Source: a virus (lineage: Duplodnaviria; Heunggongvirae; Uroviricota; Caudoviricetes). Taken from it: a DNA stretch of 45,417 bases. Shown here one piece after another: positions 23,785-44,027 of this stretch. Location: IMG/VR virus record IMGVR_UViG_2675903468_000006; one strand, given 5' to 3'. The position numbers and the translations under genes are program-made. Numbering within the stretch: position 1 is the stretch's first letter; each line of letters opens with the position of its first letter. The notes under the pieces are model-generated. The model saw only the letters and a list, made by a program, of their open reading frames with translations. It was not told where the DNA came from and made no database searches.

Positions 23785-24003
23785 TTACTCCGTTGTTTGT
23801 CCTGCTGGCTGTTCGGTCTGCTCTGCCGGTACTGGCGTAAACTGCACGCGCTTCACATCGGCCGGAGCGAAATAAAGCCACTCGCCCGTCTCTGTCGCCA
23901 GCGGCACAAAGCCATTAACCAACTCAGGCTGACGTCGTGACATCTTGCCCGTGAAGGTTTCGCCTGTTTGAGTGGTTAGCGTGATTTGGTAGATGTCGGA
24001 CAT
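23785..24003 (-). CDS. Hypothetical small protein upstream of terminase
   Basis: Start set at MSDIYQ; terminator hairpin just upstream. Confidence 0.4.
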   Translation of the reverse strand: MSDIYQITLTTQTGETFTGKMSRRQPELVNGFVPLATETGEWLYFAPADVKRVQFTPVPAEQTEQPAGQTTE

Positions 24004-24023
24004 GAAGACCCTCACAAGCCACT

Positions 24024-24057
24024 GTTGAAGAAAATGCCATCAGCATGGTGATGGCAT
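24024..24057 (-). terminator. Intrinsic terminator after the R-x4-H moron
   Basis: Minus-strand 9-bp stem ATGCCATCA...TGATGGCAT followed by TTTTCTT. Confidence 0.5.
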
Positions 24058-24080
24058 TACAATTCAATAATATGGCTGTA

Positions 24081-24662
24081 TTATTTTGCAGTTTTGTATT
24101 CAATAAACCCGTCAAAAATCAGACTATCGATGGTCATCATTTTCGTAAGTTTTTCCATAACCTCAGGATTTTCTTGCATATCAACAAGCCATCTCCTCAC
24201 GCCATTAGCTATATCATTACATAACTCAATAACATCTAATTGCAGAACACCATTAAAAGCATTCATATGTGCATGAAGGTTTTCTCGCGCAGGGGTCGTT
24301 ATCTTAAACTTCCTTAGCTTCGTTTCATCAACGCCTTCATGCAAACATGCATTCCTTAAACTCCAACAGTCTTCTGCAGTGAATGAGACTACGGGTTTTT
24401 GCGCCCTTAAGCTTTGCTTTATTCCTTCAGGCATGCTCTGAACCATTGCAGGGCTGGTGAGACTTAAATAGTCATACATGTTATCAGCGTTATATCTTGG
24501 CTTAAGATAGCGATTAAACCAGTCCTTGTACCTCGCGCCATTTCCTTTGATTTTATCCTCTGTCGCGCCACAGATGTCAGGAAGTGATATTGCTATGAAT
24601 AAAGCACCAAACCAATTCTTTTTAGACAAGCAATCATCTATTCCACTCAGCAACTGTTGCAT
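24081..24662 (-). CDS. Moron protein with R-x4-H (HEPN-like) motif; possible abortive-infection/defence candidate
   Basis: AT-rich; ATG at 24662 with SD AAGGTG; RNACLH motif; alternative GTG start at 24743 gives a lipobox-like LIVASGC N-terminus. Confidence 0.5.
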   Translation of the reverse strand: MQQLLSGIDDCLSKKNWFGALFIAISLPDICGATEDKIKGNGARYKDWFNRYLKPRYNADNMYDYLSLTSPAMVQSMPEGIKQSLRAQKPVVSFTAEDCWSLRNACLHEGVDETKLRKFKITTPARENLHAHMNAFNGVLQLDVIELCNDIANGVRRWLVDMQENPEVMEKLTKMMTIDSLIFDGFIEYKTAK

Positions 24663-24730
24663 ATATGAGCACCTTATTTTGTTGTAGACAGAGCCTACAA
24701 TACAACCAGATGCAACTATTAAGAAAACCT

Positions 24731-25192
24731 TTACTTCAAGCACTGAGTGCTTAGATATTCCTGAAGATAGCCAACCTGCTTCATCACTGTGGCGATTCTT
24801 TCTCTGAGGGTGAAATAATCCCGTTCAGCGGAGTCAGTAAGTCGGGGGCCGGAAGCATCGCCCATGCCGCTGGAGCCGGTCGTTCCGTTCGCGGGACAGT
24901 TTGCGTTGAGCTGCAGCCGCTTACGGCCAGCAATGACATCGCTATGCAGACGCTCAATGGTTTCTTTCGCATCAGCTAGTTCTCCGGTGTATTTGGCATC
25001 CAGTGCAGCGACATCACGCTGGCGGGCCTGCATGTCTTTTATGGTGGTGTTAGCCAGGCTGAGTTTCTCAGTGGCTTTATCGCGCTGGTCTTTATAAGCG
25101 ATGGCGTTGTCGCGGTAGTGGTTAATCGCCCAGGCCATGGAAACGAGCAGGCAGATAACGACAGCACAGATGATTGCTGTTAATCGGCTCAT
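24731..25192 (-). CDS. Rz: Rz i-spanin
   Basis: N-terminal TM segment then coiled coil; ATG overlaps endolysin stop; Rz1 embedded. Confidence 0.7.
24784..24972 (-). CDS. Rz1: Rz1 o-spanin lipoprotein embedded in Rz
   Basis: Signal peptide with lipobox LAVSGC, Pro-rich mature part, +1 frame inside Rz. Confidence 0.7.
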
Positions 25193-25683
25193 TTCTGGCC
25201 CCACTCGCAAACTTCGCGCTCAATCTCGCGCCGGGTTATCAGTCCCTTCCACTGCTTGCCACCGGCATACGTCCAGCGTTGCAGTTCTTTGCATGCCCCC
25301 GGCACGTCTCCGGCGTTCAGCTTCTTCAGCAGCGTCGAGCTGGCAAAAGCACCAGAGCCAACGTTATAGGTGAAGGAGTAAAGCGCGGCGCGGGTTGGCT
25401 CAGGAATGCGAACCTTGATCAGCGGGTCGATAGCATTTGCCACCTTTCGCAGATCGGCCTTCAGCATGTTGTCGCACTCTTTGTCGGTGTATCGGTGACC
25501 GCGGCGAATGTCCGCTCCGGTGTGCCCATCGCAAACAGTCCAGACGCCGACCACATCCTGATAGGCGTAATAGCGCCGTCCTTCCAGCCCATCGGCATTG
25601 CCCAGCATTACTGCAGCAATGGTGATGGCTCCGGATCCGCCAACAATGGCACCCACCAGCTTATTCCTCAACGTTGGGTTCAT
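25189..25683 (-). CDS. SAR endolysin (T4-lysozyme-type, GH24)
   Basis: N-terminal Gly/Ala-rich SAR segment [20 protein letters not shown]; lysozyme-like core. Confidence 0.85.
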
Positions 25684-25885
25684 CTCGGCTCCTGCTGCGG
25701 CGGTTGTCTTCGCGGATCTTGAAATAGAGATTCGTCAGATACGTCAGTACGGCAATGATGATACCCACCAGCACGCCGATAGCGTTCCACTGCTCGGGGC
25801 TGTAGGCATTAAGCATGCCGTTTAGGATGCTCCCGGCTGAAGCGCCATAGGCAGCACCAGTGGTTATTTTTTCCATGCGATACAT
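25661..25885 (-). CDS. Holin (pinholin-like, two TMD)
   Basis: 74 aa, two hydrophobic segments, charged C-terminus, overlaps endolysin start. Confidence 0.7.
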
Positions 25886-25984
25886 GCTCTCACCTCGCGT
25901 AGTTAGCGGGTGCTGTTCGTGTAGTGGGAAAGGCCGTCAAACACGATAGCTACGGGGCATCTGAAAGTGATTGTCTGCGGCCTG

Positions 25985-26010
25985 AATAAAAAACCCGGCG
26001 ACAGGCCGGG
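25985..26010 (-). terminator. Intrinsic terminator downstream of tRNA-Thr, upstream of holin
   Basis: Minus-strand CCCGGC-CTGTC-GCCGGG hairpin plus T-run. Confidence 0.55.
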
Positions 26011-26064
26011 AAGATGAGGGTAAGGCAATGTCGGCTCTACGGCCTATCCCAGCTGGCGGGATTC

Positions 26065-26140
26065 TGGTGCTGATTGACGGAGTTGAACCGCCGACATCCT
26101 GCTTACAAGGCAGGCGCTCTACCTACTGAGCTAAATCAGC
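26065..26140 (-). tRNA. tRNA-Thr (anticodon UGU), phage-borne
   Basis: 76-nt cloverleaf folded by hand: 7-bp acceptor stem, D-arm, anticodon loop CUUGUAA, T-loop TTCAACT, encoded CCA. Confidence 0.8.
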
Positions 26141-26170
26141 CAATAAAAAAGCCCCGCACGATGGCGAGGC
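26141..26170 (-). terminator. Hairpin plus T-run between Q and tRNA (candidate tR'-type terminator)
   Basis: Minus-strand GCCTCGC-CATCGT-GCGGGGC (one G-U pair) followed by TTTTTTATT. Confidence 0.45.
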
Positions 26171-26232
26171 TGGTTATTCATTCATGTCACACACAACAAT
26201 GGCAACATATACGAATTATTCTGCTCATTTGT

Positions 26233-26733
26233 TCATTGAAAAGCAAGCACGTTGTGAACATTTTTTGCAACTTTGTTCACATTATCGCGGCTGATAAAGG
26301 CATTTTGCAGCGGTTGATACAGGCAGAACAGTGCCGCGTTAAGTGTTTCCTTCACCTCCCGGCGTATGGTGGATATGCTCGGGTGCTTATACTGATTCCC
26401 GCCACGCGTCTTCATCACTCGAGGTTTGCTCACAGCGTGCTGCCAGCTGGCGATGCGGATCTCACTGGAGTTGCAGACGTAATAGGCGAAGACAACACGC
26501 CAGGCGTTCTCGTCGATATTTTTCAGGTAATGGCGCAGCACTGCGTCAATCAGCATACCGTCGTCGTCGCTACATACCGGGCGAGATGCCTGCTGCGGTT
26601 CGACGGTCGCCATAAACTTGGCAATCATGTTGATCATCGCCTTGTCTATCTTCCCGGTCTGCGACCATGCACCCCACAACTGGAGCCACTGATCAATCCA
26701 CTGATGCTGCTCGTTGGTTAATTCCAGTTTCAT
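26233..26733 (-). CDS. Q: Late gene antiterminator Q
   Basis: 166 aa, immediately upstream of tRNA/lysis cassette, SD AAGGAGG. Confidence 0.65.
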   Translation of the reverse strand: MKLELTNEQHQWIDQWLQLWGAWSQTGKIDKAMINMIAKFMATVEPQQASRPVCSDDDGMLIDAVLRHYLKNIDENAWRVVFAYYVCNSSEIRIASWQHAVSKPRVMKTRGGNQYKHPSISTIRREVKETLNAALFCLYQPLQNAFISRDNVNKVAKNVHNVLAFQ

Positions 26734-26846
26734 GCGGCCTCCTTCTTTGGCTGGTTGGTTTTGGTCTGGCTGTGCTTTGCTATTGGCGGCAGACTGGCGC
26801 GCTTAACGCTTTCGGCCTGGTATCTGGCTATCTGGTCACTGGTCAT
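26730..26846 (-). CDS. Very small coupled ORF (38 aa), Lys-rich C-terminus
   Basis: Start and stop both overlap neighbouring genes; below track cutoff. Confidence 0.2.
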   Translation of the reverse strand: MTSDQIARYQAESVKRASLPPIAKHSQTKTNQPKKEAA

Positions 26847-27058
26847 CAAATCGCCCTCGGCCTAGTTACGCACACAGAAATTCGGTAATGCTCACCTGCA
26901 TCAAATACGAATCCTTTTGCGTAAGTGGATAGCCCATCAGATACCGTCTTCCTTGCTAGCCTGTCAGCCGCGTGTTGTGCCTGCCTCTTGCTCATCCTGA
27001 TAGCGTTAAAATCGGCGTCCGTCAGCGGGCCACCTATGCCGAAAACTGGCTTTATCAT
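26846..27058 (-). CDS. Hypothetical nin-region protein (NinH-like position)
   Basis: 70 aa between NinG and Q. Confidence 0.4.
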   Translation of the reverse strand: MIKPVFGIGGPLTDADFNAIRMSKRQAQHAADRLARKTVSDGLSTYAKGFVFDAGEHYRISVCVTRPRAI

Positions 27059-27687
27059 GCTGCCTCCTGTTGACGGGCGCGGCGCTTCTCCAGCGCGCGG
27101 GCTTTACGGGTGAAAATGGATTTGATGCGTTGCAGGTATTGGATGTCGAACCGGCGGACGGAGTTATCGTTGTTTATCGCCTCAACTTTTTCGGCACCGA
27201 TGCGCTCGATAAGGCCCTGTTCAAATGCCTTTTGCGCGCCGTCCCGATCCCGGTTGCAATAGACACACTGGGCAGCGGTATTGTGAAGGTTGAAAGCCAG
27301 ATGCGCGGCAGCGCCACGGGTGCGATAGTGTCCGCAGTCCATGGTTCCGCCAAACTTCTGCTCTGGCAGCCTGCCGCAGCTGATGCACGGCTTACCTGCA
27401 TCCCTCAGACGGACGTACCGGTTGAATGCCGCCTGCGCTTCCGATCTCCACTGCGGTTTCGTTTTTAGCGCCACCTTTCTCGCTTTCAGATCCCGGCGTT
27501 CCGCGCGCTCTTTCTCTTTGCGCTCCTTGATGCGCTTAGCCGCGGCTTTAACCTTCTCCTTTTCGCGCTCCTCCATCGCGAGGATTGCGCCGTGCTCCGG
27601 ACAGCACCAGCGGATCCGGATGTCGTGGAATTTCGGCACGAAGTATTCACCGCATACTTTGCACTTACGGCGGGATGGTTTACGCAT
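27055..27687 (-). CDS. ninG: NinG/Rap-family recombination protein
   Basis: N-terminus [16 protein letters not shown], Cys clusters, basic repeat region; start moved to internal Met. Confidence 0.7.
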
Positions 27688-28348
27688 GGGCACCACCTTG
27701 AACCTGTACCAGCGTGAGGTTTCCGCAGAACACGGCACCGGTATCGATGTACATCTGGTTGGCATACTTCAGGGGCTGGCGCGCTGGGGTGTGTCCGAAG
27801 ATAAACAGATCAGCACCGGATATCGGCGAGACAATGCCGTCCTGAGCGTCGCTAACCCGCTCACGATTCCAGATGACCATTTCTTTCGGCACTGGCTTAT
27901 CAAATTCATATTCGTTGTGCGGGTAGTCAGCGTGACAGATGACTATTTTTCGATCGGAGGTAACCAACTCGATGATGAGTGGTAACTCAGCCGCTTTGTG
28001 AACCAGAGCCTTAGCCAGCACTTCTTTGTCATAGTCGAGATTGAAGAACCAACCGCCACCATTTACCAGCCAGTGATTGACGTTTCCATACTCCGACAGC
28101 CCATCAATCATCATCTGCTCATGGTTTCCTCGCACAGCCCGGAGCCAAGGCATAGTAATCAACTCCAGGCACTCGACGTTTTCCGCGCCGCGGTCAACAA
28201 GGTCTCCAACCGAAATCAGCAAATCACACGCAGGGTCGAACGAAACTTTTTCGAGCTCATTCATCAGCAGCGTGTAGCACCCATGCAGATCGCCGACGAC
28301 GAAAATATTGCGCCATTCAGCGCCATTAATGCGTTGATACATGCTCAT
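27680..28348 (-). CDS. Serine/threonine protein phosphatase (lambda NinI / PP-lambda family)
   Basis: GDLHG, GDLVDRG, GNHE motifs; start set at [12 protein letters not shown]. Confidence 0.8.
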
Positions 28349-28515
28349 GCAGATTTTCTCCTCGCCGCGAGACGCAGCCATTTCTGATCCACCAGACGGG
28401 CGGTGTAGCCCTTCAGTGTCGGGATGTCGGACGGCTTAACCGCAGGCTTACGCTGGCGGCGCGCAGGAACGCGGAATATTTCGTTTGTGATGATGCGGGA
28501 AAGTGGAGTAGACAT
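28345..28515 (-). CDS. Small coupled nin-region ORF (56 aa), basic
   Basis: ATG overlaps NinB stop, stop overlaps phosphatase ATG; below track cutoff. Confidence 0.35.
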
Positions 28516-28970
28516 CAGGCCTCCTGCTTATCGCGCAGCTGCTGGTATTCACAGCTCTGCGGAATGGTCAGGTGGCAGCCGATATTCATCGCCCAGGCTT
28601 CGACCTTGCACAGGAAGATGTACATTTCGCCAGTTTCCAGATCAGACGTATGGCGGAGGGATTGGACGGTGGTGACCTCGCCGGACACGACGTCTACACG
28701 GTCTTTGCTTTCGTAGCCGAGATAGGTGTGCTTCATCGCGTCTTTGACCCACTCAGGCGTAGCGAAGGTCTTGCCGCGGGCGATGAGGTACTCGCTGATT
28801 TCCGTGTACCACATGTGGCTGAGCGCGTTCTGTGACAGGCTGCGCTTCTCTCGCCACGGCTTAACCTGCAGGCGGAAGCACTGCCCGGCATCCAGCAATG
28901 GCTGAATCTGCTGGCCGATGGCCGCGAAGTTGCCACGATGGAGTTTGATACCGTCTACTGGCAGAGTCAT
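28515..28970 (-). CDS. ninB: NinB recombination protein
   Basis: 151 aa, position at start of nin cluster. Confidence 0.7.
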   Translation of the reverse strand: MTLPVDGIKLHRGNFAAIGQQIQPLLDAGQCFRLQVKPWREKRSLSQNALSHMWYTEISEYLIARGKTFATPEWVKDAMKHTYLGYESKDRVDVVSGEVTTVQSLRHTSDLETGEMYIFLCKVEAWAMNIGCHLTIPQSCEYQQLRDKQEA

Positions 28971-29149
28971 ACGGCCTCCTTAACGGAAACCGCAGAATGC
29001 AGAAAATCGCAGGTGCATTTCTGCATCTGTGACAATGTGAGGAGTTCAGATTGTGGTCGCATTTAAGTCCCCTTAAATGCGCAGAAGTCACCAATGGGTG
29101 TTCAGACCATCAGCAAAGAAAGTATGGACGGTTGATTCAACAAAATCAA

Positions 29150-29176
29150 CTGAAGAGAAAGGCCTCCGGAGAGGCC
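29150..29176 (-). terminator. Intrinsic terminator after the Cys-rich moron
   Basis: GGCCTC-CGGA-GAGGCC hairpin, T-rich tract on minus strand. Confidence 0.5.
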
Positions 29177-29182
29177 AATGAG

Positions 29183-29464
29183 TTAGTCGTCCACGCGTTT
29201 AAAGCACTGCGGGCAAACATCATTTCCACCGTGTTCTTCGTATGCGCTTTTAACAGCATCAGTCATCTCTTTAAAGCTTTCGAATAGATGACTACCGTTG
29301 CTTTTTTTATAAGCTCCGGCTGCGTATTTGTAGATGTCGGACTCTTCTATGCCCTCATCAACATAAGTGCCCTCATGATGAGGGCACTGCGTTAAAGCGC
29401 CAACCCTACCAAGCATCTCCAATGCCCAACACTCTTGTTTCATGCAAAGTTGATCGATACTCAT
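29183..29464 (-). CDS. Cys-rich small protein (possible zinc-binding), moron
   Basis: Start at MSIDQL with SD AGGAGG; AT-rich; CxxxxC, CPHH and CPQC clusters; own terminator. Confidence 0.45.
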   Translation of the reverse strand: MSIDQLCMKQECWALEMLGRVGALTQCPHHEGTYVDEGIEESDIYKYAAGAYKKSNGSHLFESFKEMTDAVKSAYEEHGGNDVCPQCFKRVDD

Positions 29465-29730
29465 AACGCCTCCTGTTGGTTTTACATCGCCAAATGAATG
29501 TACCACCATGCAAGAGGAAATGAAGCAGTTAAATTGTAAAACATGTGTATATATCAATGAGTTAAAATAGTTTGCTATTTTTCTTACAGCCTTGCTGCGT
29601 CGAATGGGTTAGGCATGGCGACCTCTACACGAGCTGAAAATATAAGCCGCTACAGCCAAATCCTGAATTGCTGTTATTGCCAGCATCCAACCATAAATGC
29701 TGTCATTGAAATGCCACGCCAGCGCTGTAA

Positions 29731-29946
29731 TCACGGCTTCACCTCCTTAGCCGTTTTGACGATTGCAGCGAGGCACTTCTTGCATGGAACCTGCAATGAA
29801 CCCTGCTCAATGCTCAACAGTGCATGCTGAGCGTCCTGAAACAACCAGTCAGAAAATTGAGGCTTATGTCCGCACCATGTTTCTGTTTCATGCTTCGCAA
29901 GTTTTACGCCGTCACGATAGTCATATTTGATGATGTGATTACTCAC
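29731..29946 (-). CDS. Hypothetical protein
   Basis: 71-aa ORF overlapping the Lar-like stop. Confidence 0.4.
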   Translation of the reverse strand: MSNHIIKYDYRDGVKLAKHETETWCGHKPQFSDWLFQDAQHALLSIEQGSLQVPCKKCLAAIVKTAKEVKP

Positions 29947-30242
29947 GGCTGTACCTCCTGCTGCGGTGCTGCAATTAGTTCTAGCGTGAAGCCGTCTTGC
30001 TTAAGACTATCAATGTAAGCCGCAGTTCTCCTGCGCTCGCCAGCACATGCCAGCGTTTCTGGGTCGTAAAACCACACCTTCATTCGGCTATTCCATGCAG
30101 AAATTGCTTCAGCCTTATTGCGCTTTAATGGCCCATGAGCACCACATTTGCAGTGGACGTAGCGCTTCTTTCCCATAATACTGAATGAGTAGCCAATACC
30201 AAGCGCTGTCGATTCGCAAAATGGGCAGAGTAGTGGAGTCAT
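29943..30242 (-). CDS. lar: Lar-family restriction alleviation protein
   Basis: N-terminal CPFC...CKCG zinc-ribbon arrangement, about 99 aa. Confidence 0.55.
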   Translation of the reverse strand: MTPLLCPFCESTALGIGYSFSIMGKKRYVHCKCGAHGPLKRNKAEAISAWNSRMKVWFYDPETLACAGERRRTAAYIDSLKQDGFTLELIAAPQQEVQP

Positions 30243-30943
30243 TTATCCTCCTGCTGAGGTGCTGCTGAAGATGCAAAAATATCAATCAGCGTATCTTCTC
30301 CCATGCTATTGCAATGAGCCTGAAGCCTATTGATGATTGCCTGAAGAGCAAACTTCGGAACCATATTTTCCTTACCTATCTGCGGGCAGTTTTCGGTACC
30401 GAACCAAAATTGCTCGATCTGCAGCAGCAGACCATTTTTGCCTTCAGTTGCACTGAATACGCCGAACGCTTCAATGTCGTATGCTTTCGCAATCACAGGA
30501 GAGTTGCCATCGGCACCCTGAAGCATGGCGGCGCGGCGCTCCCAGTCAGCTATTGCGGCTGAATGTTCCATCGAGTCGTCGCCAAACTCAGCATGTGCGC
30601 ACTCGTCTGCCGCATTGGCGGCAGTTTTCGCAATCGTCAAGAGATCTGACAGGAGCGAATCAGATATCGGTGCTGGCGGGGCGGTGTAAAGCGGCTCACA
30701 TTCCCAGCCTTGCTTTTGCCAGGATGCCAGGACATTTTTTGAATCTGTCAGAAGGCCGTGATTCTCGTAATAAAGCGATCGCCACGCCACAGGATCCGCT
30801 TCGAGAGATGCCAGCGCGATACGAAACACCTCTGCAGTCATGCTGCGAGGCGACTGATTGTCATGCGCTGGGTCGGTAAGGAAGCCAGTAATAAACGCCT
30901 TCAATTGCTGATTGTGAATATCGCGTTTGTCGATGTTGCTCAT
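30239..30943 (-). CDS. Hypothetical protein
   Basis: Start set at ATG after SD GGAGGA; the track's longer start is a TTG inside the SD. Confidence 0.45.
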   Translation of the reverse strand: MSNIDKRDIHNQQLKAFITGFLTDPAHDNQSPRSMTAEVFRIALASLEADPVAWRSLYYENHGLLTDSKNVLASWQKQGWECEPLYTAPPAPISDSLLSDLLTIAKTAANAADECAHAEFGDDSMEHSAAIADWERRAAMLQGADGNSPVIAKAYDIEAFGVFSATEGKNGLLLQIEQFWFGTENCPQIGKENMVPKFALQAIINRLQAHCNSMGEDTLIDIFASSAAPQQEDK

Positions 30944-31587
30944 TGGGCGGTCCTCCAACCTTCACATTCAATGTCACTGCAGCCATCGAAATCGTATGGA
31001 TTTAGCTGCCAGCTAATCTTTCCGCAGCAAGGGCAATTCCAGCGAACCTTACCGCTGCGTGATTTTTTTCGGTTGTGCTTTTTCAGCCACTCAGGCATGA
31101 CAAGCCCTGCCGCCTGAACCATGGTGCGTCGGTTAAACTCATTGATGCTGAACGTGCGGCGCTTAGCCTTGTCAGCTAAAGCAAAAGGAATCCAGACAAT
31201 GCCAGGCTCTGCCGTGTTGGCGGATACAAAAACGAATGCCTTACTGAAGTCGTCAGTTGGAAGGCCTCCATGTTGCAACCAGTACACATCGTTACCGTTC
31301 CAACTGCCTTTTTTGTAGGCCACATAGGACTCACAGCCAGGCTCAATAACACTTTCGGTAGGTATGTACTGACAATCGACATGCCAGACAGCCATGGAAT
31401 CAACACTGTCAGCGCAAACCGGCTGATCAATCTCTCTACCCAATTCCCAGCTTCTTTGAGCTTCTTCACGGGTGTACACGTGGGCGCGGTCTATATTGGA
31501 GCTATATCCGTTGCCGTTGTGGCAGTGGAATGACGCGTTACTGCCAACCGTTTCGCGAGTACAAAGCATGTAAAATCTATCGCTCAT
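30940..31587 (-). CDS. Hypothetical protein with C-terminal Cys cluster
   Basis: 215 aa; NCPCCG...C.IEC at the C-terminus. Confidence 0.45.
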   Translation of the reverse strand: MSDRFYMLCTRETVGSNASFHCHNGNGYSSNIDRAHVYTREEAQRSWELGREIDQPVCADSVDSMAVWHVDCQYIPTESVIEPGCESYVAYKKGSWNGNDVYWLQHGGLPTDDFSKAFVFVSANTAEPGIVWIPFALADKAKRRTFSINEFNRRTMVQAAGLVMPEWLKKHNRKKSRSGKVRWNCPCCGKISWQLNPYDFDGCSDIECEGWRTAQ

Positions 31588-32018
31588 GACTGCACTCCTT
31601 TGCGAAGCTCGTCGGCGAAGTTCTCAGCATCTGCGGCCATGCCAGCAGCCTCTTCAGACATCCTCATGCTTCGGCTACGCAGAGCCTGCTGTCGTTCTCG
31701 CTTATGTGCGGCAAACATCTCCACACCCTGCGCCCGCACTTCAGCCAGGAAAGCGTCGGTGGCTGGGGTTTTGACCTTATTCGCAGCGAACTCAATTTTT
31801 TCTTTCGTGTCTCTGCCGATTTCGCTTGAGCCCAACTTTCCGATGAAGCTAACGATTTGGTCAGGGAACTGCTTCAGCCCCGCATTCTCCGCAGCCAGCG
31901 CAGCGAATGTGGTTTCAAACACGTTAAGCAGAGTCGTAACTTCTGCCGGTGACATGTGCTCACCACATTCTGCATTCACCCTGGCGTTTTTAATCAGATC
32001 TTCGTATTTGTTGCTCAT
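31584..32018 (-). CDS. Hypothetical protein
   Basis: Start set at MSNKYEDL, adjacent to upstream stop. Confidence 0.45.
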   Translation of the reverse strand: MSNKYEDLIKNARVNAECGEHMSPAEVTTLLNVFETTFAALAAENAGLKQFPDQIVSFIGKLGSSEIGRDTKEKIEFAANKVKTPATDAFLAEVRAQGVEMFAAHKRERQQALRSRSMRMSEEAAGMAADAENFADELRKGVQS

Positions 32019-32314
32019 ACCCCTACCCTCCCCCAAACCATCAATACTCGCTTCATCGCCGCGCTGTTGCGGCACTCCTGAAATATTCCGTTGGTGCAGC
32101 TGCGCGCGGTACCATCTTGCTCTTCCGGCGTCGCCAGGCGGTAAGTCACCGTTCGCCAGACCTTGCTCACGCGCACAATCTTCCTGGCCCGCTCCAGATC
32201 GATAGCGTTCTTGGTGATGCAGTTGATGGTCATGACGCACTCTGTGGCCACATCCTTCGCAGTGAAGGTCCGGTGCGTTTCGAGATAACGCAGAATTGCC
32301 TGTTTGCCTTTCAT
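32015..32314 (-). CDS. Hypothetical small protein (possible winged-helix)
   Basis: 99 aa immediately downstream of helicase. Confidence 0.35.
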   Translation of the reverse strand: MKGKQAILRYLETHRTFTAKDVATECVMTINCITKNAIDLERARKIVRVSKVWRTVTYRLATPEEQDGTARSCTNGIFQECRNSAAMKRVLMVWGRVGV

Positions 32315-33747
32315 CAGAAGCCCCCTTTCTTTTTCGGCTGCTGCTCGCGCCCGCGACGTTCTGCGGCGGCGGCCTGCTGGTCTGTGTCGTAAATTGCCCC
32401 GTTAATCTGATTGCAATAAACCGTTCCGGTACTGCCGTGGCGGTTGAGTCGCAGGATTAACTCGGTTTCGCCCGGCGGCACGCTGTCATCGAAAGCACCT
32501 TCCCGGTGGATACCAACCCAGTAGTCGCAGTCCTGCTCAATCTGTCCTGTGTCGCGGGAATCACTCGGCAACGGGCGTTTATTCACTCGCTTCTCCAGTT
32601 CGCGGTTGAGCTGAGTCAGCAGCACGACGACGCAGCCAAGCTCTTTGGCCAGGTTCTTCAACCCTTTGGTGATCATCCCGTAGGCCAGGTCATTACGGTC
32701 TGCTTTTTCGGCGGTCATCAGCGTCAGGTAGTCAACCAGAATCATGCCTACGCAGCCTTTCTCGCGCTTAATTCGACGGCATTCGGTAACGATATGCGCC
32801 AGTGACAGGCCAGGAGTGTCGTCGATGTACAGCATGTCGATTTCACTCAGCCGCCCGGCTGTTGCGATCGCCTTCTTAAAGTCGCCGTCGTAGTCGCCCT
32901 GATACTGGTCATCGGCATCATCCGTGGCGGGCATGTAAAAAATGCTCGGGTTAATGCCCGACTTCTGACCAACCAGTTTTTCGAGGATCTGGTCGCCTGG
33001 CATTTCCAGGCTGAACATCAGCGCCGGCTTTTTCTCACGAACCGCGCAGTTGATCGCCATCTGCCCGTACAGGGTTGTTTTGCCCATTTTTGGCCTTGCG
33101 CCAATTACGAACAGAGAGCCTTTAACCAGACCTTTCGGCGCCAGCAGCCGGTCGAGTGACGGGATACCGGTACTCATGCCGCGCTGTTCGCCTGAGGGGT
33201 CAAATCGTTTTTCCAGATCTGCTACCCAGTCATCCATAACCTCGCCGAACGACCGCAACCCACGACGATTTCCGGTTTTTGAATGATCTGCGAGCTGGGT
33301 GAAGATACCCTGAATGGCCTCATACTTCTGCGTAGCGCTCATACCGTTGCGGGAATACAGCAGCTCAGTAGCTTCGGTCAGACGGTTGATACCGTAGCGC
33401 TCCATTGCGGCTTCCCGGACTGATTCTGCGTATGCCACGATGTTTGCTGCGCTTGGAGTGTTCTTGGCTATCTCCGCCAGGTAAGCAAAGCCACCTACCT
33501 GCTCCGCGAGCCCTTTTCCTTCAAGCGCGTCGAACAATGTCAGACCATCGACTGGCTTGTTGTCGCGGAACATCTGGCGCATCTCGGCAAAGATCAGCTG
33601 GTGAGGTCGGCTGTAGAACGACTCAGGCTTGAGCATCGCCAGAACCTTCTGGACTCGCTCGCTGTTGTCATCATCCAGCAGCAGGCCACCGATAACGCTC
33701 TGCTCCGCTTCGAGGTTTTGTGGCACAGCCATGAATTCAGCGGTCAT
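32314..33747 (-). CDS. Replicative DNA helicase (DnaB family)
   Basis: Walker A GARPKMGKT, DnaB-like N- and C-domains; SD GGGGG. Confidence 0.85.
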   Translation of the reverse strand: MTAEFMAVPQNLEAEQSVIGGLLLDDDNSERVQKVLAMLKPESFYSRPHQLIFAEMRQMFRDNKPVDGLTLFDALEGKGLAEQVGGFAYLAEIAKNTPSAANIVAYAESVREAAMERYGINRLTEATELLYSRNGMSATQKYEAIQGIFTQLADHSKTGNRRGLRSFGEVMDDWVADLEKRFDPSGEQRGMSTGIPSLDRLLAPKGLVKGSLFVIGARPKMGKTTLYGQMAINCAVREKKPALMFSLEMPGDQILEKLVGQKSGINPSIFYMPATDDADDQYQGDYDGDFKKAIATAGRLSEIDMLYIDDTPGLSLAHIVTECRRIKREKGCVGMILVDYLTLMTAEKADRNDLAYGMITKGLKNLAKELGCVVVLLTQLNRELEKRVNKRPLPSDSRDTGQIEQDCDYWVGIHREGAFDDSVPPGETELILRLNRHGSTGTVYCNQINGAIYDTDQQAAAAERRGREQQPKKKGGF

Positions 33748-34636
33748 CACGATCCCCCTCGCGCACTTCGATGTAGAGCTTTTCGGTCAGGAACTTATCG
33801 AATTTCATGCGGCGCCAGGTTTTCCCGGATTTCTGGTCTGGTCGGTCTTCAAGCATCCAGCGGCAGTTTTGAGCGATATATCGCAGATAGCTTCTGAAAC
33901 CGTCCATATCCATCGGCTTGCCGTCCAGGTTGCGGGCAATCTTGTTAGCCTTACCCCAGAAGGTGCGGATCAGATTGCGTCGCTCATCAGTGAGGCATCT
34001 CCATCCCCGGGCTTCAGGCAGTTCGTCTTTCAGGCATTGCCATACTTCATCGCATGACAAACGGGACTTTTTCTCTTCAGCGGGGTTCTGGTCATTTGCG
34101 ACATACTTACTACCTTTAGGTAGTAAGTTATTTAATATATTGTTATCTGTGGACACCGGCTGGACATCGGCTGGACACACATCCTCCACAGGCATTGTTA
34201 TTACTGCGTTTGCGCTGGACACTGGCTGGACATCGGCTGGACAAAAATTTGACTGATATTCGTCATATTTGACCACTTTTAGAACAGTAAAACGGTTGTT
34301 CGATTTGGTGGTGATCATGCCCAGATTCTGGAATTTACGGAGCAGTGATTTAACGCGATCAGCGGTCAAACCCGTTTCCATTGCCAGCGTGTTACGCCCG
34401 GTGATGAACTCGCCGCGCTCGCAGATCACATCGCCAACATCAGTCGATACCAGTGTCTGTTCGTGATTAGCGCGCAGGAGCAGGTGAACCCATAAATGAG
34501 CCGCCTCAGCGTCCTTGTAGAACGGCACATCCATAATTTTACGGTGCAGCAAGGCAAACCCCTTACCGTCATTCGTGCGCGGTTTCTGGAGCCTTCTGGC
34601 CTCTCTGGCTTCGGCTAAATTGGATACGTTACCCAC
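33737..34636 (-). CDS. Replication initiator (lambda O-like), contains origin iterons
   Basis: Internal protein repeat CPADVQPVS matching the DNA iterons; probable GTG start after SD AAGGAGA. Confidence 0.65.
   Translation of the reverse strand: MGNVSNLAEAREARRLQKPRTNDGKGFALLHRKIMDVPFYKDAEAAHLWVHLLLRANHEQTLVSTDVGDVICERGEFITGRNTLAMETGLTADRVKSLLRKFQNLGMITTKSNNRFTVLKVVKYDEYQSNFCPADVQPVSSANAVITMPVEDVCPADVQPVSTDNNILNNLLPKGSKYVANDQNPAEEKKSRLSCDEVWQCLKDELPEARGWRCLTDERRNLIRTFWGKANKIARNLDGKPMDMDGFRSYLRYIAQNCRWMLEDRPDQKSGKTWRRMKFDKFLTEKLYIEVREGDRDDR
34103..34243. repeat. Phage replication origin: 10-bp inverted repeat, AT-rich tract and about six CTGGACA-type iterons
   Basis: Iterons at about 10-bp periodicity in two clusters; inverted repeat CTTACTACCT/AGGTAGTAAG. 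Confidence 0.6.
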
Positions 34637-34865
34637 GGCCACTCTCCTTACGTTTCAATTCTTCCAGGATGGCGCGCATCTTCTCTGCCACAATCGGGTT
34701 AACCGAGCGGATGAAGCGGTCGCGGGCTATGTTTTTATGTACAGCGGTATGGTAATAGCGTGGATTTTTTGCCATTATTCCTCCTGCAATGAGTGCACAC
34801 GATTTGCATCTGAAGGCCAGTTCTGTTCGCGCAGACTGGCTTTCGCCATTTTTGATACTTCCCAT
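34629..34865 (-). CDS. Small coupled ORF between YdaT-like and O genes
   Basis: ATG overlaps upstream stop (TGATG); 78 aa. Confidence 0.3.
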   Translation of the reverse strand: MGSIKNGESQSARTELAFRCKSCALIAGGIMAKNPRYYHTAVHKNIARDRFIRSVNPIVAEKMRAILEELKRKESGRG

Positions 34866-35407
34866 CACATAACCCCCAGCATCGACGTGACCATCGTCAT
34901 CAGTGGGCCTACCTGCTCCGGCATGAGGCGGAACAGCGAAGCTATACCCTCGCTTACCTCTTTCAGCTTCTGATGCTCTGGGGCGTCCAAAAGCACGGCC
35001 TGTTTAGCTTCAGCACACTCTTTCATCGCAGAAGCGATCAGCGACATCGTGTCGTTCTGCGGCGCCAGGCGGTTGCGGTACTCCAGCGGCAATACGGACA
35101 TGATTGCGGGTGTCAGCTGGCGCACGTTCTCGCGGTACTGTTCGGAGTCGAAACGGTTATCCAGGAAGCGGAACAGCTTCTGGCGCGCACGGCTGATGTC
35201 GTCAGGAAAGCTGATGGCGGTCCCGCCCTGCTCCCGGTATTCGTTGATGATCAGTGCCGAAACGACGTCCTGATTGTCCAGCGCCGAAGACCATGCCCGG
35301 ACCGCATCGCGGATCTTTTCGTGGTCAGGCGCCGCCTTAGGTTGAGCGCGGTTTATCATCGCTCCCGGGTGTATTCCGGTATTGTGTTGATACGCAAGTG
35401 AATGCAT
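34865..35407 (-). CDS. YdaT-family regulatory protein (cII position)
   Basis: Segments NEYREQGG and LTPAIMSVLPLEYRNRL resemble Rac YdaT; sits directly after cro. Confidence 0.55.
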   Translation of the reverse strand: MHSLAYQHNTGIHPGAMINRAQPKAAPDHEKIRDAVRAWSSALDNQDVVSALIINEYREQGGTAISFPDDISRARQKLFRFLDNRFDSEQYRENVRQLTPAIMSVLPLEYRNRLAPQNDTMSLIASAMKECAEAKQAVLLDAPEHQKLKEVSEGIASLFRLMPEQVGPLMTMVTSMLGVM

Positions 35408-38297: not shown

Positions 38298-38494
38298 TGG
38301 AAACTTTATTCGCACTCGTCCTGACCGTGGCAATGACCAACGGTGATTATCAGGATGTCATTCTCGGCGTTTACGACAGCCAGCAGGAATGCAGCCTGGC
38401 AGCTACAGAGCAGAAAGTGTCAGCTGAGTGCTGGCCGGTAGAAAGCATCATCCGCAACGGCGAGTTCCCGGCGAAATCCATCGCGCAGCAGTAA
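38297..38494 (+). CDS. Small protein with signal-peptide-like N-terminus (65 aa)
   Basis: METLFALVLTVAMTNG hydrophobic N-terminus. Confidence 0.4.
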   Translation: METLFALVLTVAMTNGDYQDVILGVYDSQQECSLAATEQKVSAECWPVESIIRNGEFPAKSIAQQ

Positions 38495-38564
38495 CCACCC
38501 TATTCAACCGATCGGCCTGGCATTACGCGGGCGGGATCTGCACATCCAAATTTCAGGAGAAACC

Positions 38565-39536
38565 ATGAGCGAAGTAACGGACTTAACTGTCATCGAAATC
38601 AAGCCGGAACAGGCCCCAGTGCTTTACGTAGCGGGCGGCCTTGACGCGTACCTTGAGCAAATCCGCCAGGCTGTAAACGAAGTGCCGGACCTGTCCACGA
38701 AGAAAGGCCGTGACCGTGTTGCCTCTCTGGCAGCGCAGGTGTCCCGCAGCAAGACGGCAATCGAAAAGCCGGGCCGTGAGTACCTGAAGCGCCTGAAAGA
38801 GGCTGTGCGTCCGGCTGAGGCCGAAATTAAGCGATTCGTTGATGCCTGCGACGAGCTGCGCGATGCGACCCGCCGCCCACTCACCGAATGGGAAGCCGAG
38901 CAGGAACGCATTAAGGCTGAAGAAGCCATGAACGCGATGCACGCCGAAGCGCTGGAGATGAACATCAGGTTCGATCAGGAACTGGCTGCCAAGTTCGAAG
39001 CGGACCACGAAATGGCTCTACTGATGAACAAGGATTTTGACCGTGACCGCGAAGAGCAGCGCCGTCTGGCGGAACAGGCTCAGCGTGAACGTGATGAGCG
39101 GCTGAAACAGGAAGCGGCAGAACAAGCCCGCCGCGATGCCGAAGCGAAGCACAAAGCGGAGATTGAAGCCGCAGCGCGCCGTGAAGCCGAAGAGAAAGCC
39201 CGCGCTGAACTGGCGGAGCGCCAGTGCGTCGAAGCGGAACAGCGTGCAGCTCGCGAGAAGCAGGAAGCGGAAGCCCGGGCGGAACGCGAAAAAGCCGCGG
39301 CGGTTGAAGCCGAGCGCCTGAAGGCCAAACAGGCCGAAGATGCCCGCCTGGCCGAAGAGAAGCGCCTCGCCGATGAGCAGGCAAAGCGTGAAGCTGACGT
39401 TAAGCACCGCAAGACGGTCGGCACCAACATCGTTAACGCGCTCACCAGCCAAACCAGCTTAACCCGCGAGCAGGCTATCGAAGTGCTTACCGCTCTGAAA
39501 GATGACCTGATCCCCTGCGCGAAAATTCATTACTGA
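38565..39536 (+). CDS. Hypothetical protein with long Glu/Arg/Ala-rich coiled-coil region
   Basis: 323 aa upstream of RecT; overlapping antisense ORFs are low-complexity artefacts. Confidence 0.5.
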   Translation: MSEVTDLTVIEIKPEQAPVLYVAGGLDAYLEQIRQAVNEVPDLSTKKGRDRVASLAAQVSRSKTAIEKPGREYLKRLKEAVRPAEAEIKRFVDACDELRDATRRPLTEWEAEQERIKAEEAMNAMHAEALEMNIRFDQELAAKFEADHEMALLMNKDFDRDREEQRRLAEQAQRERDERLKQEAAEQARRDAEAKHKAEIEAAARREAEEKARAELAERQCVEAEQRAAREKQEAEARAEREKAAAVEAERLKAKQAEDARLAEEKRLADEQAKREADVKHRKTVGTNIVNALTSQTSLTREQAIEVLTALKDDLIPCAKIHY

Positions 39537-39543
39537 GGCAACC

Positions 39544-39828
39544 ATGAACGCATACCTCACTTACGACCGCATCGAAGATCGGCGCTGGGCTGAGCAGCAG
39601 ATCACCGACGAGAAAGAGAAGTGGATCGACGACCGGGCGCAGAAAATCATCGACATGATGCCTAAAGAGCCGTCCGGCCTCTTCCACTTCACGATCCCGA
39701 TAGACTCCAGCCCATACGAAGGGCTTCGCAGCGATAAAGCTGGCGAGGCCTACAACGATTTCATTTCGGTAGTTGCTTACGCCCAGGCGGAATACGACTG
39801 GGAACACCGTACCGGCTGCCCGTTTTAA
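39544..39828 (+). CDS. Hypothetical protein
   Basis: 94 aa directly upstream of RecT. Confidence 0.4.
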   Translation: MNAYLTYDRIEDRRWAEQQITDEKEKWIDDRAQKIIDMMPKEPSGLFHFTIPIDSSPYEGLRSDKAGEAYNDFISVVAYAQAEYDWEHRTGCPF

Positions 39829-39846
39829 TTTTTGAGGGATTTAACA

Positions 39847-40593
39847 ATGAGTACTGCACTTTCCACCATGGCCGGGAAACTGGCCGCACGCCTCGGCATG
39901 GATGCCGGTACAGACCTGATGAATACGCTGAAGAATACAGCGTTCAAAGGTGGCAACGTCACGGACGAGCAGTTTACAGCCCTGTTGATCGTCGCCAACC
40001 AGTACGGCCTGAACCCATGGACCAAAGAGATTTACGCATTCCCAGATAAAGGCGGGATTGTCCCGGTCGTCGGCGTTGATGGATGGGCTCGCATTATCAA
40101 CGAGCATCCTCAGTTTGACGGCATGGAGTTCTCTTACGACAAGGAGGAAGGCGCGTGTACCTGCAAGATTTACCGCAAAGACCGTAAGCACCCGACCATC
40201 GTCACCGAGTACATGGGAGAGTGCAAACGCAACACTCAGCCATGGCAGTCCCACCCTACCCGCATGCTTCGCCACAAGACGCTGATCCAGTGCGCGCGTC
40301 TGGCCTTTGGTTTCGCTGGCATCTTCGACCAGGACGAGGCAGAGCGAGTAATTGAAGGAACAACGGCAGAGGTTCATGCGGGCCATGAATCAGATAGCCG
40401 CCGCCCGGAACTGATCGCAAAAGGTGAGTCCGCCGCGCGCCTTGGAACCGTTAAGTATCAGGAGTTCTGGGTGGCGCTGAGCGCCGAAGAGAAACAGGTG
40501 ATCGGCGCAGTTGAGAAACGACGCATGTATGACATGAGTCTTGCTGTCGACAACGCCGAACCTGTCAATGTCGCAGAGACGGAGGCTGAATGA
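39847..40593 (+). CDS. recT: RecT-family single-strand annealing recombinase
   Basis: RecT-like sequence; start set at MSTALS with upstream SD; followed by YqaJ-type exonuclease. Confidence 0.8.
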   Translation: MSTALSTMAGKLAARLGMDAGTDLMNTLKNTAFKGGNVTDEQFTALLIVANQYGLNPWTKEIYAFPDKGGIVPVVGVDGWARIINEHPQFDGMEFSYDKEEGACTCKIYRKDRKHPTIVTEYMGECKRNTQPWQSHPTRMLRHKTLIQCARLAFGFAGIFDQDEAERVIEGTTAEVHAGHESDSRRPELIAKGESAARLGTVKYQEFWVALSAEEKQVIGAVEKRRMYDMSLAVDNAEPVNVAETEAE

Positions 40594-41207: not shown

Positions 41208-41292
41208 AGGCACTCATCACCCGGGAGCTTAAAGCTCCTTTTTTATTGCTGGCGTTCACCTTCAACCGAATTAACCGACAGTTCCGGGAGCA

Positions 41293-42733: not shown

Positions 42734-42823
42734 ACAGCATCAGCGCATCGCCGTGTGGCGGGTGACATCCCGCCAAATAACGACGATCAACTGAACATCA
42801 ACACATTATATGTACATACGACC

Positions 42824-43915: not shown

Positions 43916-43998
43916 GACGGGGAGGATGTCAAGCAACTGATAGCCAGTTATGAGCTGGCTATTGGGTGCGAAAGCACTGCTCAGTTATCCCCCATTTT

Positions 43999-44027
43999 GC
44001 CCGGCCCCGCGCCGGGCGCTCTTTTTC
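43999..44027 (+). terminator. Hairpin plus T-run after tnpB (terminator or right-end hairpin of the IS)
   Basis: GCCCGGC-CCCGC-GCCGGGC followed by gctcttttt. Confidence 0.5.

What the first reader, a model, noticed from the sequence alone, without database searches (positions are those of the whole stretch)
28345..28515. Unannotated 56-aa coupled ORF between ninB and the phosphatase gene
Seen in sequence: the ATG overlaps the ninB stop and the stop overlaps the phosphatase ATG, filling an otherwise non-coding 170-nt gap. Established knowledge: lambda nin regions contain several 57-60-aa genes (ninD, ninE, ninF). Inference: a small nin protein missed by the 60-aa cutoff.
Basis: partly seen in the sequence, partly recalled or inferred. 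Interest (0 to 1): 0.25.

Follow-up and report, generated by a model that had tools for sequence, protein, structure and literature searches.

The report
Known small phage gene ninE
The 56-codon reading frame is a real, conserved gene, but it is the long-known lambdoid phage gene ninE, which public genome records already annotate, so the finding is correct but ordinary.

Summary
The ORF exists as described, on the minus strand at 28345..28515 (56 aa). Its ATG overlaps the upstream stop (TGATG) and its stop overlaps the phosphatase ATG (ATGA). An open frame of this length is not unusual by itself: 16% of shuffles stay open. The comparative evidence is decisive. It matches NCBIfam "NinE family protein" over its full length (108.5 bits, cutoff 88) and Pfam NinE (27.2, cutoff 25). 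It is 40% identical to lambda NinE (E 9e-9) and 93% identical to phi80/HK225 NinE. The frame is intact in 11 phage relatives and in 43 of 43 loci from different enterobacterial species. dN/dS is about 0.2 (Fisher p 1e-4 to 4e-7). A 100% identical stretch in E. coli 23CRST004 is already annotated "NinE family protein". The same gene is ninE (b0548) in E. coli K-12 DLP12 and orf56 in the phage 82 record. The "ninB" upstream is the diverged Orf-family protein YbcN. The function of NinE is unknown; in lambda it is nonessential. The product is very basic (pI 11.9) and is predicted as helix, basic linker, helix. It is almost always translationally coupled behind an Orf-family recombination mediator. 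I therefore favour, tentatively, a role as a nucleic-acid- or partner-binding accessory of the recombination module. Novelty: already known. A truly unannotated 70-aa coupled ORF lies nearby at 26846..27058 (-).

The parts
28345..28515 (-). ninE coding sequence (56 aa plus stop). The product is a 6.46 kDa protein with pI 11.9 and net charge about +10.5.
   Evidence: ORF. NCBIfam NF007245, 108.5 bits (cutoff 88), full length. Pfam PF05322, 27.2 bits (cutoff 25). PHROG 288, 1.5e-31. 40% identity to lambda NinE, E 9e-9. dN/dS 0.11-0.42. Physico-chemistry.
28520..28525 (-). AGGAGG Shine-Dalgarno for ninE. It lies inside the last codons of ybcN, 4 nt before the ATG.
   Evidence: Read from the sequence. 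The same aggagg is kept in phi80, CobraSix, phage 82, ST11phi8.1, PhiR47_2 and GZ7, and ggagg-like variants occur in the NinB-preceded loci.
28513..28517 (-). TGATG junction: the stop of ybcN and the start of ninE share one base (translational coupling).
   Evidence: The ninE start overlaps the upstream stop in 41 of 42 species loci.
28345..28348 (-). ATGA junction: the start of the phosphatase gene overlaps the stop of ninE.
   Evidence: The RefSeq start of the phosphatase in the 100% identical record maps to 28348. The downstream gene overlaps the ninE stop in 42 of 42 assessable loci.
28358..28362 (-). AGGAG Shine-Dalgarno for the phosphatase gene. It is embedded in ninE codons R52-R53, 9 nt before the phosphatase ATG.
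   Evidence: Read from the sequence.
28515..28970 (-). Upstream gene: YbcN-family protein (151 aa), a diverged Orf/NinB-type recombination mediator.
   Evidence: NCBIfam NF007281, 265.4 bits (cutoff 164). PHROG 72 'NinB/Orf', 6e-51. Pfam NinB, 22.9 bits, below the 23.8 cutoff. PMC4118853.
27680..28348 (-). Downstream gene: NinI-like serine/threonine protein phosphatase (222 aa).
   Evidence: Pfam Metallophos, 1.9e-16. PHROG 246, 4.6e-113. RefSeq annotation.
27055..27687 (-). ninG/rap, the next gene of the same coupled operon.
   Evidence: Pfam NinG, 5e-48. RefSeq annotation.
29161..29176 (-). Terminator-like GC hairpin followed by a T-rich tail, upstream of ybcN. It is at the position of lambda tR2 and phi80 IR4. 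Consensus match only.
   Evidence: phi80 IR4 annotation.

Best explanation
The segment is the protein-coding gene ninE of a lambdoid prophage. It lies in the rightward early 'nin' operon between the replication genes and the antiterminator Q. The gene order on the minus strand is ybcN (Orf-family recombination mediator), ninE, ninI-like phosphatase, ninG/rap, a 70-aa ORF, a 39-aa ORF, Q.

Shown here:
- It is a real gene under purifying selection on its amino-acid sequence.
- It belongs to the NinE family.
- Its start and stop overlap its neighbours' stop and start. Its own ribosome-binding site lies inside ybcN, and the phosphatase's ribosome-binding site lies inside ninE.

Inferred:
- Ribosomes finishing ybcN re-initiate on ninE, and those finishing ninE re-initiate on the phosphatase gene. 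The three products would then be made from one message in linked amounts.
- The product is a 6.5 kDa, extremely basic polypeptide. It has a variable N-terminal amphipathic helix, a Pro/Arg/Lys-rich linker and a conserved C-terminal helix (KPSDIPT...YTAxLxDxxWLRxxARR).
- My best guess for its action (about 0.3) is that it binds nucleic acid and/or a partner protein as a dispensable accessory of the phage recombination/DNA-repair module (Orf/YbcN with Rap or RusA).

No experiment has assigned NinE a function. In lambda it is nonessential.
For: Identity:
- NCBIfam NF007245 'NinE family protein', 108.5 bits vs cutoff 88, positions 1-55 of 56.
- Pfam PF05322, 27.2 vs 25. PHROG 288, 1.5e-31.
- BLASTP to lambda NinE: 40% identity over 52 aa, E 9e-9. 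No similarity to NinD, NinF or NinH.
- 93% identical to the annotated ninE of phi80 and HK225, which have the same YbcN-NinE-Ppp-Rap order.
- The 100% identical DNA in NZ_AP045762.1 is annotated NinE family protein.
- K-12 ninE b0548 is also 171 nt. Phage 82 orf56 is noted as related to nin60.
- 782 protein clusters at 90% identity; the 120 listed are nearly all 56 aa (one is 91 aa), and most of those with a source name are called NinE.

Coding:
- The frame is intact in 11 of 11 phage relatives and 43 of 43 species loci, with lengths of 55-57 aa.
- dN/dS is 0.11-0.42, median 0.22. Variable sites by codon position are 25/26/49. Fisher p is 8e-5 to 4e-7.
- All the other reading frames carry stops in most relatives, apart from the directly antisense frame, which stays open in 8 of 12 sequences.

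Coupling:
- Junction overlaps are conserved in 41 of 42 loci upstream and 42 of 42 downstream, although the downstream gene varies: NinG 21, YbcO 13, phosphatase 5, other 3.

Mechanism lead:
- pI 11.9, 14 K+R against 3 D+E.
- AlphaFold model: helix 4-13, linker, helix 34-55, with pLDDT 80-89 in the C-terminal helix.
- 13 invariant residues include the non-basic S29, T33, Y37, T38, D43 and W46. This argues for a specific interaction rather than a generic polycation.
- The upstream neighbour is an Orf-family gene in 38 of 42 loci, of two types only about 16% identical to each other. Three of the four exceptions are inserted HNH homing endonucleases (PMC4118853).
Against: For identity: nothing substantial. 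The Pfam score is only just above its cutoff, and that hit covers residues 18-53 only.

For the mechanism:
- There is no experimental support. The literature found lists NinE as function unknown and nonessential (PMC10695390), with a single one-off two-hybrid hit to tail protein U (PMC3224144).
- In lambda itself ninE is not adjacent to orf/ninB; ninC and ninD intervene. So the pairing with Orf is a property of the 56-aa subfamily, not of the whole family.
- The structural model has modest confidence (mean pLDDT 74, pTM 0.32) and matches no solved fold or PDB sequence.
- From my own recollection, not checked here: genetic dissection of lambda ninR recombination functions implicated orf and rap, not ninE.
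Confidence: 0.95

Rival explanations
1. The frame is a chance open reading frame in a non-coding spacer between ybcN and the phosphatase gene.
For: Openness alone is weak evidence: 16% of composition-matched shuffles of the 165-nt interior contain no in-frame stop.
Against: The frame is intact in 54 of 54 relatives down to 40% identity. dN/dS is about 0.2 with p as low as 4e-7. Third-position changes are in excess. Full-length HMM matches have E of about 1e-31. A Shine-Dalgarno and coupled junctions are conserved.
Confidence: 0.01
2. The conserved thing is a DNA or RNA element rather than a protein. Candidates are a structured RNA or terminator of the nin region, or a conserved 'linker' sequence that serves as a homology patch for mosaic exchange between variable modules.
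For: The segment is flanked by different gene modules in different phages: YbcN-type or NinB-type genes upstream, and NinG, YbcO or phosphatase genes downstream. This is the pattern expected of a module-boundary homology patch. The window itself is a mosaic: only 23821-29092 is 99.7% identical to the E. coli 23CRST004 prophage.
Against: There is no Rfam family anywhere near it. The folding energy is no better than shuffles (z = +0.45). No terminator-like site lies inside the ORF. Divergence is concentrated at synonymous sites, which a nucleic-acid element would not produce. A boundary role could exist in addition to coding, but cannot replace it.
Confidence: 0.03
3. It is a different small nin gene (ninD or ninF type), not ninE.
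For: The size is similar: lambda NinD is 57 aa and NinF 56 aa.
Against: BLASTP against lambda NinD, NinF and NinH gives only noise (E 24-39 or no hit), while NinE gives 4e-8. NinD and NinF are Cys-rich, and NinF is acidic. This protein has no Cys and a pI of 11.9.
Confidence: 0.01
4. The NinE protein is real, but it acts on a host target (for example as a host-takeover or counter-defence peptide), and its position after orf/ybcN is only historical. A variant of this view is that the ORF's main value is as a translational bridge that sets expression of the downstream gene.
For: Many small phage early proteins act on host targets. The downstream partner is interchangeable, yet it always overlaps the ninE stop (42 of 42), and the downstream ribosome-binding site lies inside ninE. 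In lambda, ninE is separated from orf. The gene is dispensable for plaque formation (PMC10695390).
Against: A pure bridge would not need 13 invariant residues or a dN/dS of about 0.2. No homology to any characterised anti-defence or host-modulating protein was found. The near-constant placement after two very divergent Orf types in 38 of 42 loci, with 3 of the 4 exceptions explained by HNH insertions, favours a link to the recombination module.
Confidence: 0.25

Closest known systems
NinE of phages phi80 (ABF05_gp62, YP_007947975.1) and HK225
   Same: 93% amino-acid identity over all 56 residues. The gene order is identical (YbcN-family, NinE, Ser/Thr phosphatase, Rap/NinG), with the same TGATG and ATGA junctions and the same aggagg ribosome-binding site.
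   Different: Four amino-acid differences and about 11% DNA divergence. What follows ninG differs: a Lar-like gene in phi80, and an unassigned 70-aa ORF here.
orf56 of phage 82 (X92588.1, CAA63328.1) and ninE (b0548) of E. coli K-12 cryptic prophage DLP12
   Same: Same length (56 aa, 171 nt). Same position directly after orf151/ybcN with a one-base overlap. 64-66% identity. The phage 82 record (X92588.1) already notes it as related to lambda nin60/ninE.
   Different: The downstream neighbour is ybcO followed by rusA instead of phosphatase followed by ninG. The downstream overlap is 8 nt (ATGGCTGA) instead of 4 nt.
Lambda NinE (nin60, NP_040637.1), the prototype of Pfam PF05322
   Same: A homologous C-terminal 40 residues (KP..K.SD..T..YTAHL.D.RWLR..AR). 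It is strongly basic (pI 11.2). It lies in the nin region on the rightward operon and overlaps its neighbours.
   Different: Only 40% identical. It is 60 aa with a GTG start, and its N-terminus is unrelated and carries two Cys. It follows ninD rather than the orf gene and precedes ninF.
Arginine-rich helical RNA-binding peptides such as the N-terminal motif of lambda N. This is a functional analogy only, recalled from memory.
   Same: A short, highly basic, helical segment containing a conserved Trp, encoded in a lambdoid early operon (composition and model).
   Different: No sequence or family relationship was detected by any search. No RNA target is known. This is a lead, not a test.

Membership tests
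NinE family (NCBIfam NF007245 / PRK09689; Pfam PF05322) | The sequence scores above the curated family cut-offs. | tested here: met
   NF007245: 108.5 bits vs cutoff 88, residues 1-55 on profile 1-55 of 56. PF05322: 27.2 bits vs 25, residues 18-53. PHROG 288: E 1.5e-31.
NinE family (NCBIfam NF007245 / PRK09689; Pfam PF05322) | Direct homology to the prototype, lambda NinE (nin60), and not to the other small nin proteins. | tested here: met
   BLASTP gives 40% identity over 52 aa, E 9e-9. NinD, NinF and NinH give only noise.
NinE family (NCBIfam NF007245 / PRK09689; Pfam PF05322) | The conserved core motif is present (P17, R20, K23, S29, T33, Y37-T38-A39, D43, W46-L47-R48, R52). | tested here: met
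   These 13 columns are invariant across 21 sequences including lambda, and the window protein has all of them.
NinE family (NCBIfam NF007245 / PRK09689; Pfam PF05322) | A small gene (55-60 codons) in the nin region of a lambdoid (pro)phage, between the replication genes and Q, co-oriented and overlapping its neighbours. | tested here: met
   Window gene order. Lambda, phi80 and phage 82 maps. 43 species loci of 55-57 aa with overlapping junctions.
NinE family (NCBIfam NF007245 / PRK09689; Pfam PF05322) | The protein is actually produced, and has a shared biochemical activity. | not testable with these tools
   No activity is defined for the family. The literature found lists the function as unknown. 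Purifying selection is indirect evidence of expression.
NinD / NinF small nin proteins (considered as alternatives) | Sequence similarity to lambda NinD or NinF (Cys-rich, zinc-ribbon-like). | tested here: not met
   No significant alignment. The window protein has no Cys or His.
   22.9 bits vs cutoff 23.8. BLASTP to lambda NinB gives E 0.88.
YbcN family (NCBIfam NF007281 / PRK09741), described in the literature as a diverged branch of the Orf family | A full-length match above the curated cut-off, and a position upstream of a junction resolvase gene. | tested here: met
   265.4 bits vs 164, residues 1-151 of 151. PHROG 72 'NinB/Orf', 6e-51. It lies upstream of ninG. The relationship to Orf comes from PMC4118853.

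The most novel reading that the evidence does not exclude
The 56-aa NinE subfamily is a dedicated, co-translated partner of Orf/YbcN recombination mediators. It would be a small basic adaptor that helps load or tether the mediator on SSB-coated ssDNA. This would explain why it stays glued by overlapping codons to two Orf types that share only about 16% identity, while its downstream neighbour changes freely. It would give a function to a lambda gene that is still listed as function unknown in the papers I found.
Probability: 0.15. Interest if true: 0.35.

Novelty: already known. Interest (0 to 1): 0.06.

Why it matters
It matters little as a discovery. The gene is in the reference annotations of lambda, phi80, phage 82 and E. 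coli K-12, and this exact sequence is already named in RefSeq. The result is useful as quality control: a 60-aa ORF cutoff hides real, conserved, translationally coupled phage genes. It is also a reminder that NinE still has no known function despite being conserved under purifying selection across Enterobacteriaceae. The synteny statistics gathered here (Orf-family gene directly upstream in 38 of 42 species loci) give a concrete, testable lead for that open but minor question.

Tried and rejected
- The literature search for 'NinE protein', 'protein NinE' and 'nin60' was swamped by the word 'nine'. Searches anchored on other nin gene names or ybcN found only papers that list NinE as function unknown or nonessential. 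A search for b0548 and UniProt identifiers found nothing relevant.
- The PDB sequence search gave no hit at E <= 1. Foldseek of the AlphaFold model against the PDB gave only one meaningless hit (E 7.2). The model is two helices with modest confidence, so no fold-based inference was drawn.
- The RNA-element reading was rejected. There is no Rfam match in the region, and the fold z-score is +0.45.
- The exhaustive profile search returned 1000-1400 aa tail-fibre-like proteins at E down to 2e-11. On inspection these are five or six copies of one short 'YAKPSDIPSLxGYATExYVD' repeat. The score multiplies one weak motif match, so I did not treat them as homologues.
- The mid-length hits in that search (86-150 aa) are fusions or miscalls with neighbouring nin genes and give no independent functional clue.
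- A first script failed on the file layout. A naive colinear comparison with the E. coli record failed because the window is a mosaic. This was resolved by BLAST.
- A paired YbcN+NinE complex prediction was considered but could not be run. The structure tool takes one chain and only window or database sequences.

Full report
**1. The observation**

The window carries an ATG-to-TGA frame of 56 codons at 28345..28515.

- On the minus strand the upstream gene ends ...AAGC AGGAGG CCTG ATG. Its TGA stop (28515-28517) shares one base with the ORF's ATG (28513-28515).
- An AGGAGG Shine-Dalgarno (28520-28525) sits 4 nt before the ATG.
- At the other end the sequence GCATGAGC puts the ORF's TGA (28345-28347) over the ATG (28346-28348) of the phosphatase gene.
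- The phosphatase's own AGGAG (28358-28362) lies inside codons 52-53 of the ORF.
- Without the ORF, 166 nt (28349-28514) would be non-coding.

So the description is accurate. An open frame of this length is not itself remarkable: 16% of shuffles of the interior remain open. The case has to rest on comparison.

**2. What it is**

The translated product matches three family models:

- NCBIfam NF007245 "NinE family protein" over its whole length (108.5 bits, cutoff 88).
- Pfam PF05322 NinE (27.2 bits, cutoff 25, residues 18-53).
- PHROG 288 (E 1.5e-31).

Direct BLASTP against lambda's own NinE, fetched from NC_001416, gives 40% identity over 52 residues, E 9e-9. Lambda NinD, NinF and NinH give nothing.

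The DNA is 88-89% identical to phages phi80 and HK225. There the homologous 171-nt gene is annotated ninE, between a YbcN-family gene and the phosphatase gene ppp/ninI, exactly as here.

A stretch of the E. coli 23CRST004 chromosome (NZ_AP045762.1) is 100% identical over 28200-28700. It is annotated YbcN family protein | NinE family protein (WP_047658988.1) | serine/threonine protein phosphatase.

The same gene is ninE (b0548, 171 nt) in the DLP12 cryptic prophage of E. coli K-12 MG1655. In the phage 82 record X92588.1 it is "orf56; related to nin60 (ninE) of bacteriophage lambda", next to orf151.

The protein database holds 782 clusters of relatives at 90% identity. The 120 listed are nearly all 56 aa, and most of those that carry a source name are called NinE. 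The gene is therefore already known and routinely annotated.

**3. Is it truly coding?**

- In 11 phage relatives spanning 93% to 40% identity the frame is intact.
- In 43 loci, each from a different species-level genome of Enterobacteriaceae, it is intact in all 43, with lengths of 55-57 aa.
- Nei-Gojobori dN/dS against the window sequence is 0.11-0.42, and the median over all pairs is 0.22.
- Variable sites fall 25/26/49 on codon positions 1/2/3.
- The excess of synonymous change is significant in every comparison tested (Fisher p from 8e-5 to 4e-7).
- The RNA of the segment folds no better than shuffles (z = +0.45). No Rfam family and no terminator-like site lies in it.

The selection is on the amino-acid sequence.

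**4. Anatomy and context**

It misses Pfam NinB's threshold (22.9 vs 23.8) and shows no direct similarity to lambda NinB. PHROG 72 groups it with NinB/Orf. Curtis et al. 2014 (PMC4118853) showed that DLP12 YbcN is a highly diverged (16% identity) but functional member of the Orf recombination-mediator family.

Across the 43 species loci:

- The gene immediately upstream of ninE is YbcN-type in 17 and NinB-type in 21, out of 42 assessable.
- Of the four exceptions, three are HNH_3/NUMOD4 or HNH_3/AP2 homing endonucleases, i.e. mobile insertions. One of them still ends with YbcN's C-terminal peptide. The fourth is a DUF1367 protein.
- The ninE start overlaps the upstream stop in 41 of 42 loci, by 1, 4, 8 or 20 nt.
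- The downstream start overlaps the ninE stop in 42 of 42 loci (8 nt in 36, 4 nt in 5, 26 nt in 1).
- The downstream gene varies: NinG 21, YbcO 13, phosphatase 5, other 3.

In lambda itself ninE follows ninD, not orf. The tight pairing with an Orf-family gene is therefore a feature of the 56-aa subfamily.

**5. The product and the most likely mechanism**

The protein is 6.46 kDa with pI 11.9. It has 14 Lys+Arg against 3 Asp+Glu and no Cys or His.

An AlphaFold model built on 40 family members gives:

- a short N-terminal helix (residues 4-13);
- an extended Pro/Arg/Lys-rich linker;
- a long C-terminal helix (residues 34-55, pLDDT 80-89).

Overall confidence is modest (mean pLDDT 74, pTM 0.32). 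Neither the sequence nor the model matches any solved structure.

Thirteen residues are invariant from this protein to lambda NinE: P17, R20, K23, S29, T33, Y37, T38, A39, D43, W46, L47, R48 and R52. Several of these are not basic, which argues for a specific contact surface rather than a generic polycation.

The conserved module is the C-terminal two-thirds. This fits the Pfam hit covering only residues 18-53. It also fits database proteins in which that module is appended to a NinG-like or Lar-like zinc-ribbon N-terminus. I did not check whether those are real fusions.

*Shown:* a conserved, coupled, basic small protein.

*Inferred:* translation is coupled from ybcN through ninE to the phosphatase gene. 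The protein binds nucleic acid and/or a partner in the recombination module. I put the latter at about 0.3.

*Against it:* no experiment supports it. The literature found lists NinE as function unknown and nonessential (PMC10695390), with one single-observation two-hybrid hit to tail protein U (PMC3224144). Lambda's ninE is not adjacent to orf.

**6. Comparison with the known, and novelty**

By every testable criterion this is a member of the NinE family. It is closest to phi80/HK225 NinE (93%), then to the DLP12/phage 82 orf56 type (64-66%), and distantly to lambda nin60 (40%). It is already known. Nothing about this copy departs from the family.

The family is narrow: only 49 representative clusters at 50% identity among 1.84 billion proteins. 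The loci and phage records retrieved come almost entirely from Enterobacteriaceae and their phages.

**7. Things seen on the way**

- Two genes downstream, a 70-aa ORF (26846-27058, -) is coupled to ninG by ATGA, has AGGAGG upstream, and ends on the start of a 39-aa "PPVAKH-motif" gene.
  - It fills a 208-nt gap that RefSeq leaves unannotated in the near-identical record, although the frame is intact there.
  - It has no Pfam, NCBIfam or PHROG family and no tblastn hit in 50,697 phage records.
  - Its DNA is present in only 1 of 5,426 E. coli genomes.
  - It has 18 unnamed homologous clusters of 62-72 aa.
  - It is the window's genuine unannotated small nin-region gene.
- The window is a mosaic relative of the 23CRST004 prophage. 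Only 23821-29092 is 99.7% identical.

**Verdict**

The feature is the known gene ninE. Interest is low.

Noticed in passing
window 26846-27058 (-): A 70-aa ORF ([26 protein letters not shown]...). Its ATG overlaps the ninG stop (ATGA), AGGAGG lies upstream, and its stop overlaps the start of the next small gene. It fills a 208-nt gap left unannotated in the near-identical RefSeq record, although the frame is intact there. It has no Pfam, NCBIfam or PHROG family and no tblastn hit in the phage collection, and its DNA is found in 1 of 5,426 E. coli genomes. There are 18 unnamed homologous clusters of 62-72 aa (one called 'hypothetical protein' in Citrobacter freundii). It occupies the slot held by NinH in lambda and by a Lar-like gene in phi80.
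   Followed up: partly
window 26730-26849 (-): A 39-aa ORF (TTG start; MMTSDQIARYQAESVKRASLPPIAKHSQ...) just upstream of Q. RefSeq annotates the homologous stretch as a 'PPVAKH motif-containing phage-derived small protein'. This copy reads PPIAKH. It has no PHROG hit.
   Followed up: no
window 26065-26140 (-): A tRNA-Thr (anticodon TGT) immediately downstream of the antiterminator Q gene, at the start of the late region. A strong terminator-like hairpin lies at 26171-26150.
   Followed up: no
window 29161-29176 (-): A GC-rich hairpin (GGCCTCTCCGGAGGCC) followed by a T-rich tail, between the upstream phrog_6325 gene and ybcN. It is at the position of lambda tR2 and the annotated inverted repeat IR4 of phi80. 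This is a consensus match only.
   Followed up: no
whole window vs L003 (NZ_AP045762.1): The window is a mosaic relative of the E. coli 23CRST004 prophage. 23821-29092 is 99.7% identical, 38486-45417 is 98.9%, and 32064-34880 is 96.6%. The structural-gene blocks are only 87-90% identical, and several segments (for example 29093-32063) are unmatched. By that homology, 43708-44868 should encode an InsQ/TnpB-family RNA-guided endonuclease next to the integrase. I did not check this directly in the window.
   Followed up: no
L031 (Kocuria sabuli, 1,115-nt contig) and L042 (Halomonas llamarensis, 461-nt contig, coverage 0.74): Enterobacterial ninE loci appear on tiny contigs of unrelated genera. 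The Halomonas one has a NinE protein identical to two E. coli NinE sequences in the same sample (L041, L043). These are most likely assembly contamination.
   Followed up: no
P0151, P0183, P0157, P0145 (database proteins): In these proteins the conserved C-terminal 40 residues of NinE follow a NinG-like or Lar-like zinc-ribbon N-terminus, or NinE is fused to YbcO. They could be real fusions or frameshift/gene-call artefacts.
   Followed up: no
P0169, P0174 and similar (1,000-1,400 aa): Tail-fibre-like repeat proteins carry five or six copies of 'YAKPSDIPSLxGYATExYVD', which resembles the NinE core '[17 protein letters not shown]'. The low E-values come from summing copies of one short motif, so this is probably chance or convergence.
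   Followed up: partly
L017, L018, L048 (species loci): HNH_3/NUMOD4 or HNH_3/AP2 homing-endonuclease genes are inserted between the Orf-family gene and ninE. The L018 ORF ends with the YbcN C-terminal peptide EYQQLRDKQEA, which suggests insertion into or fusion with ybcN.
   Followed up: partly
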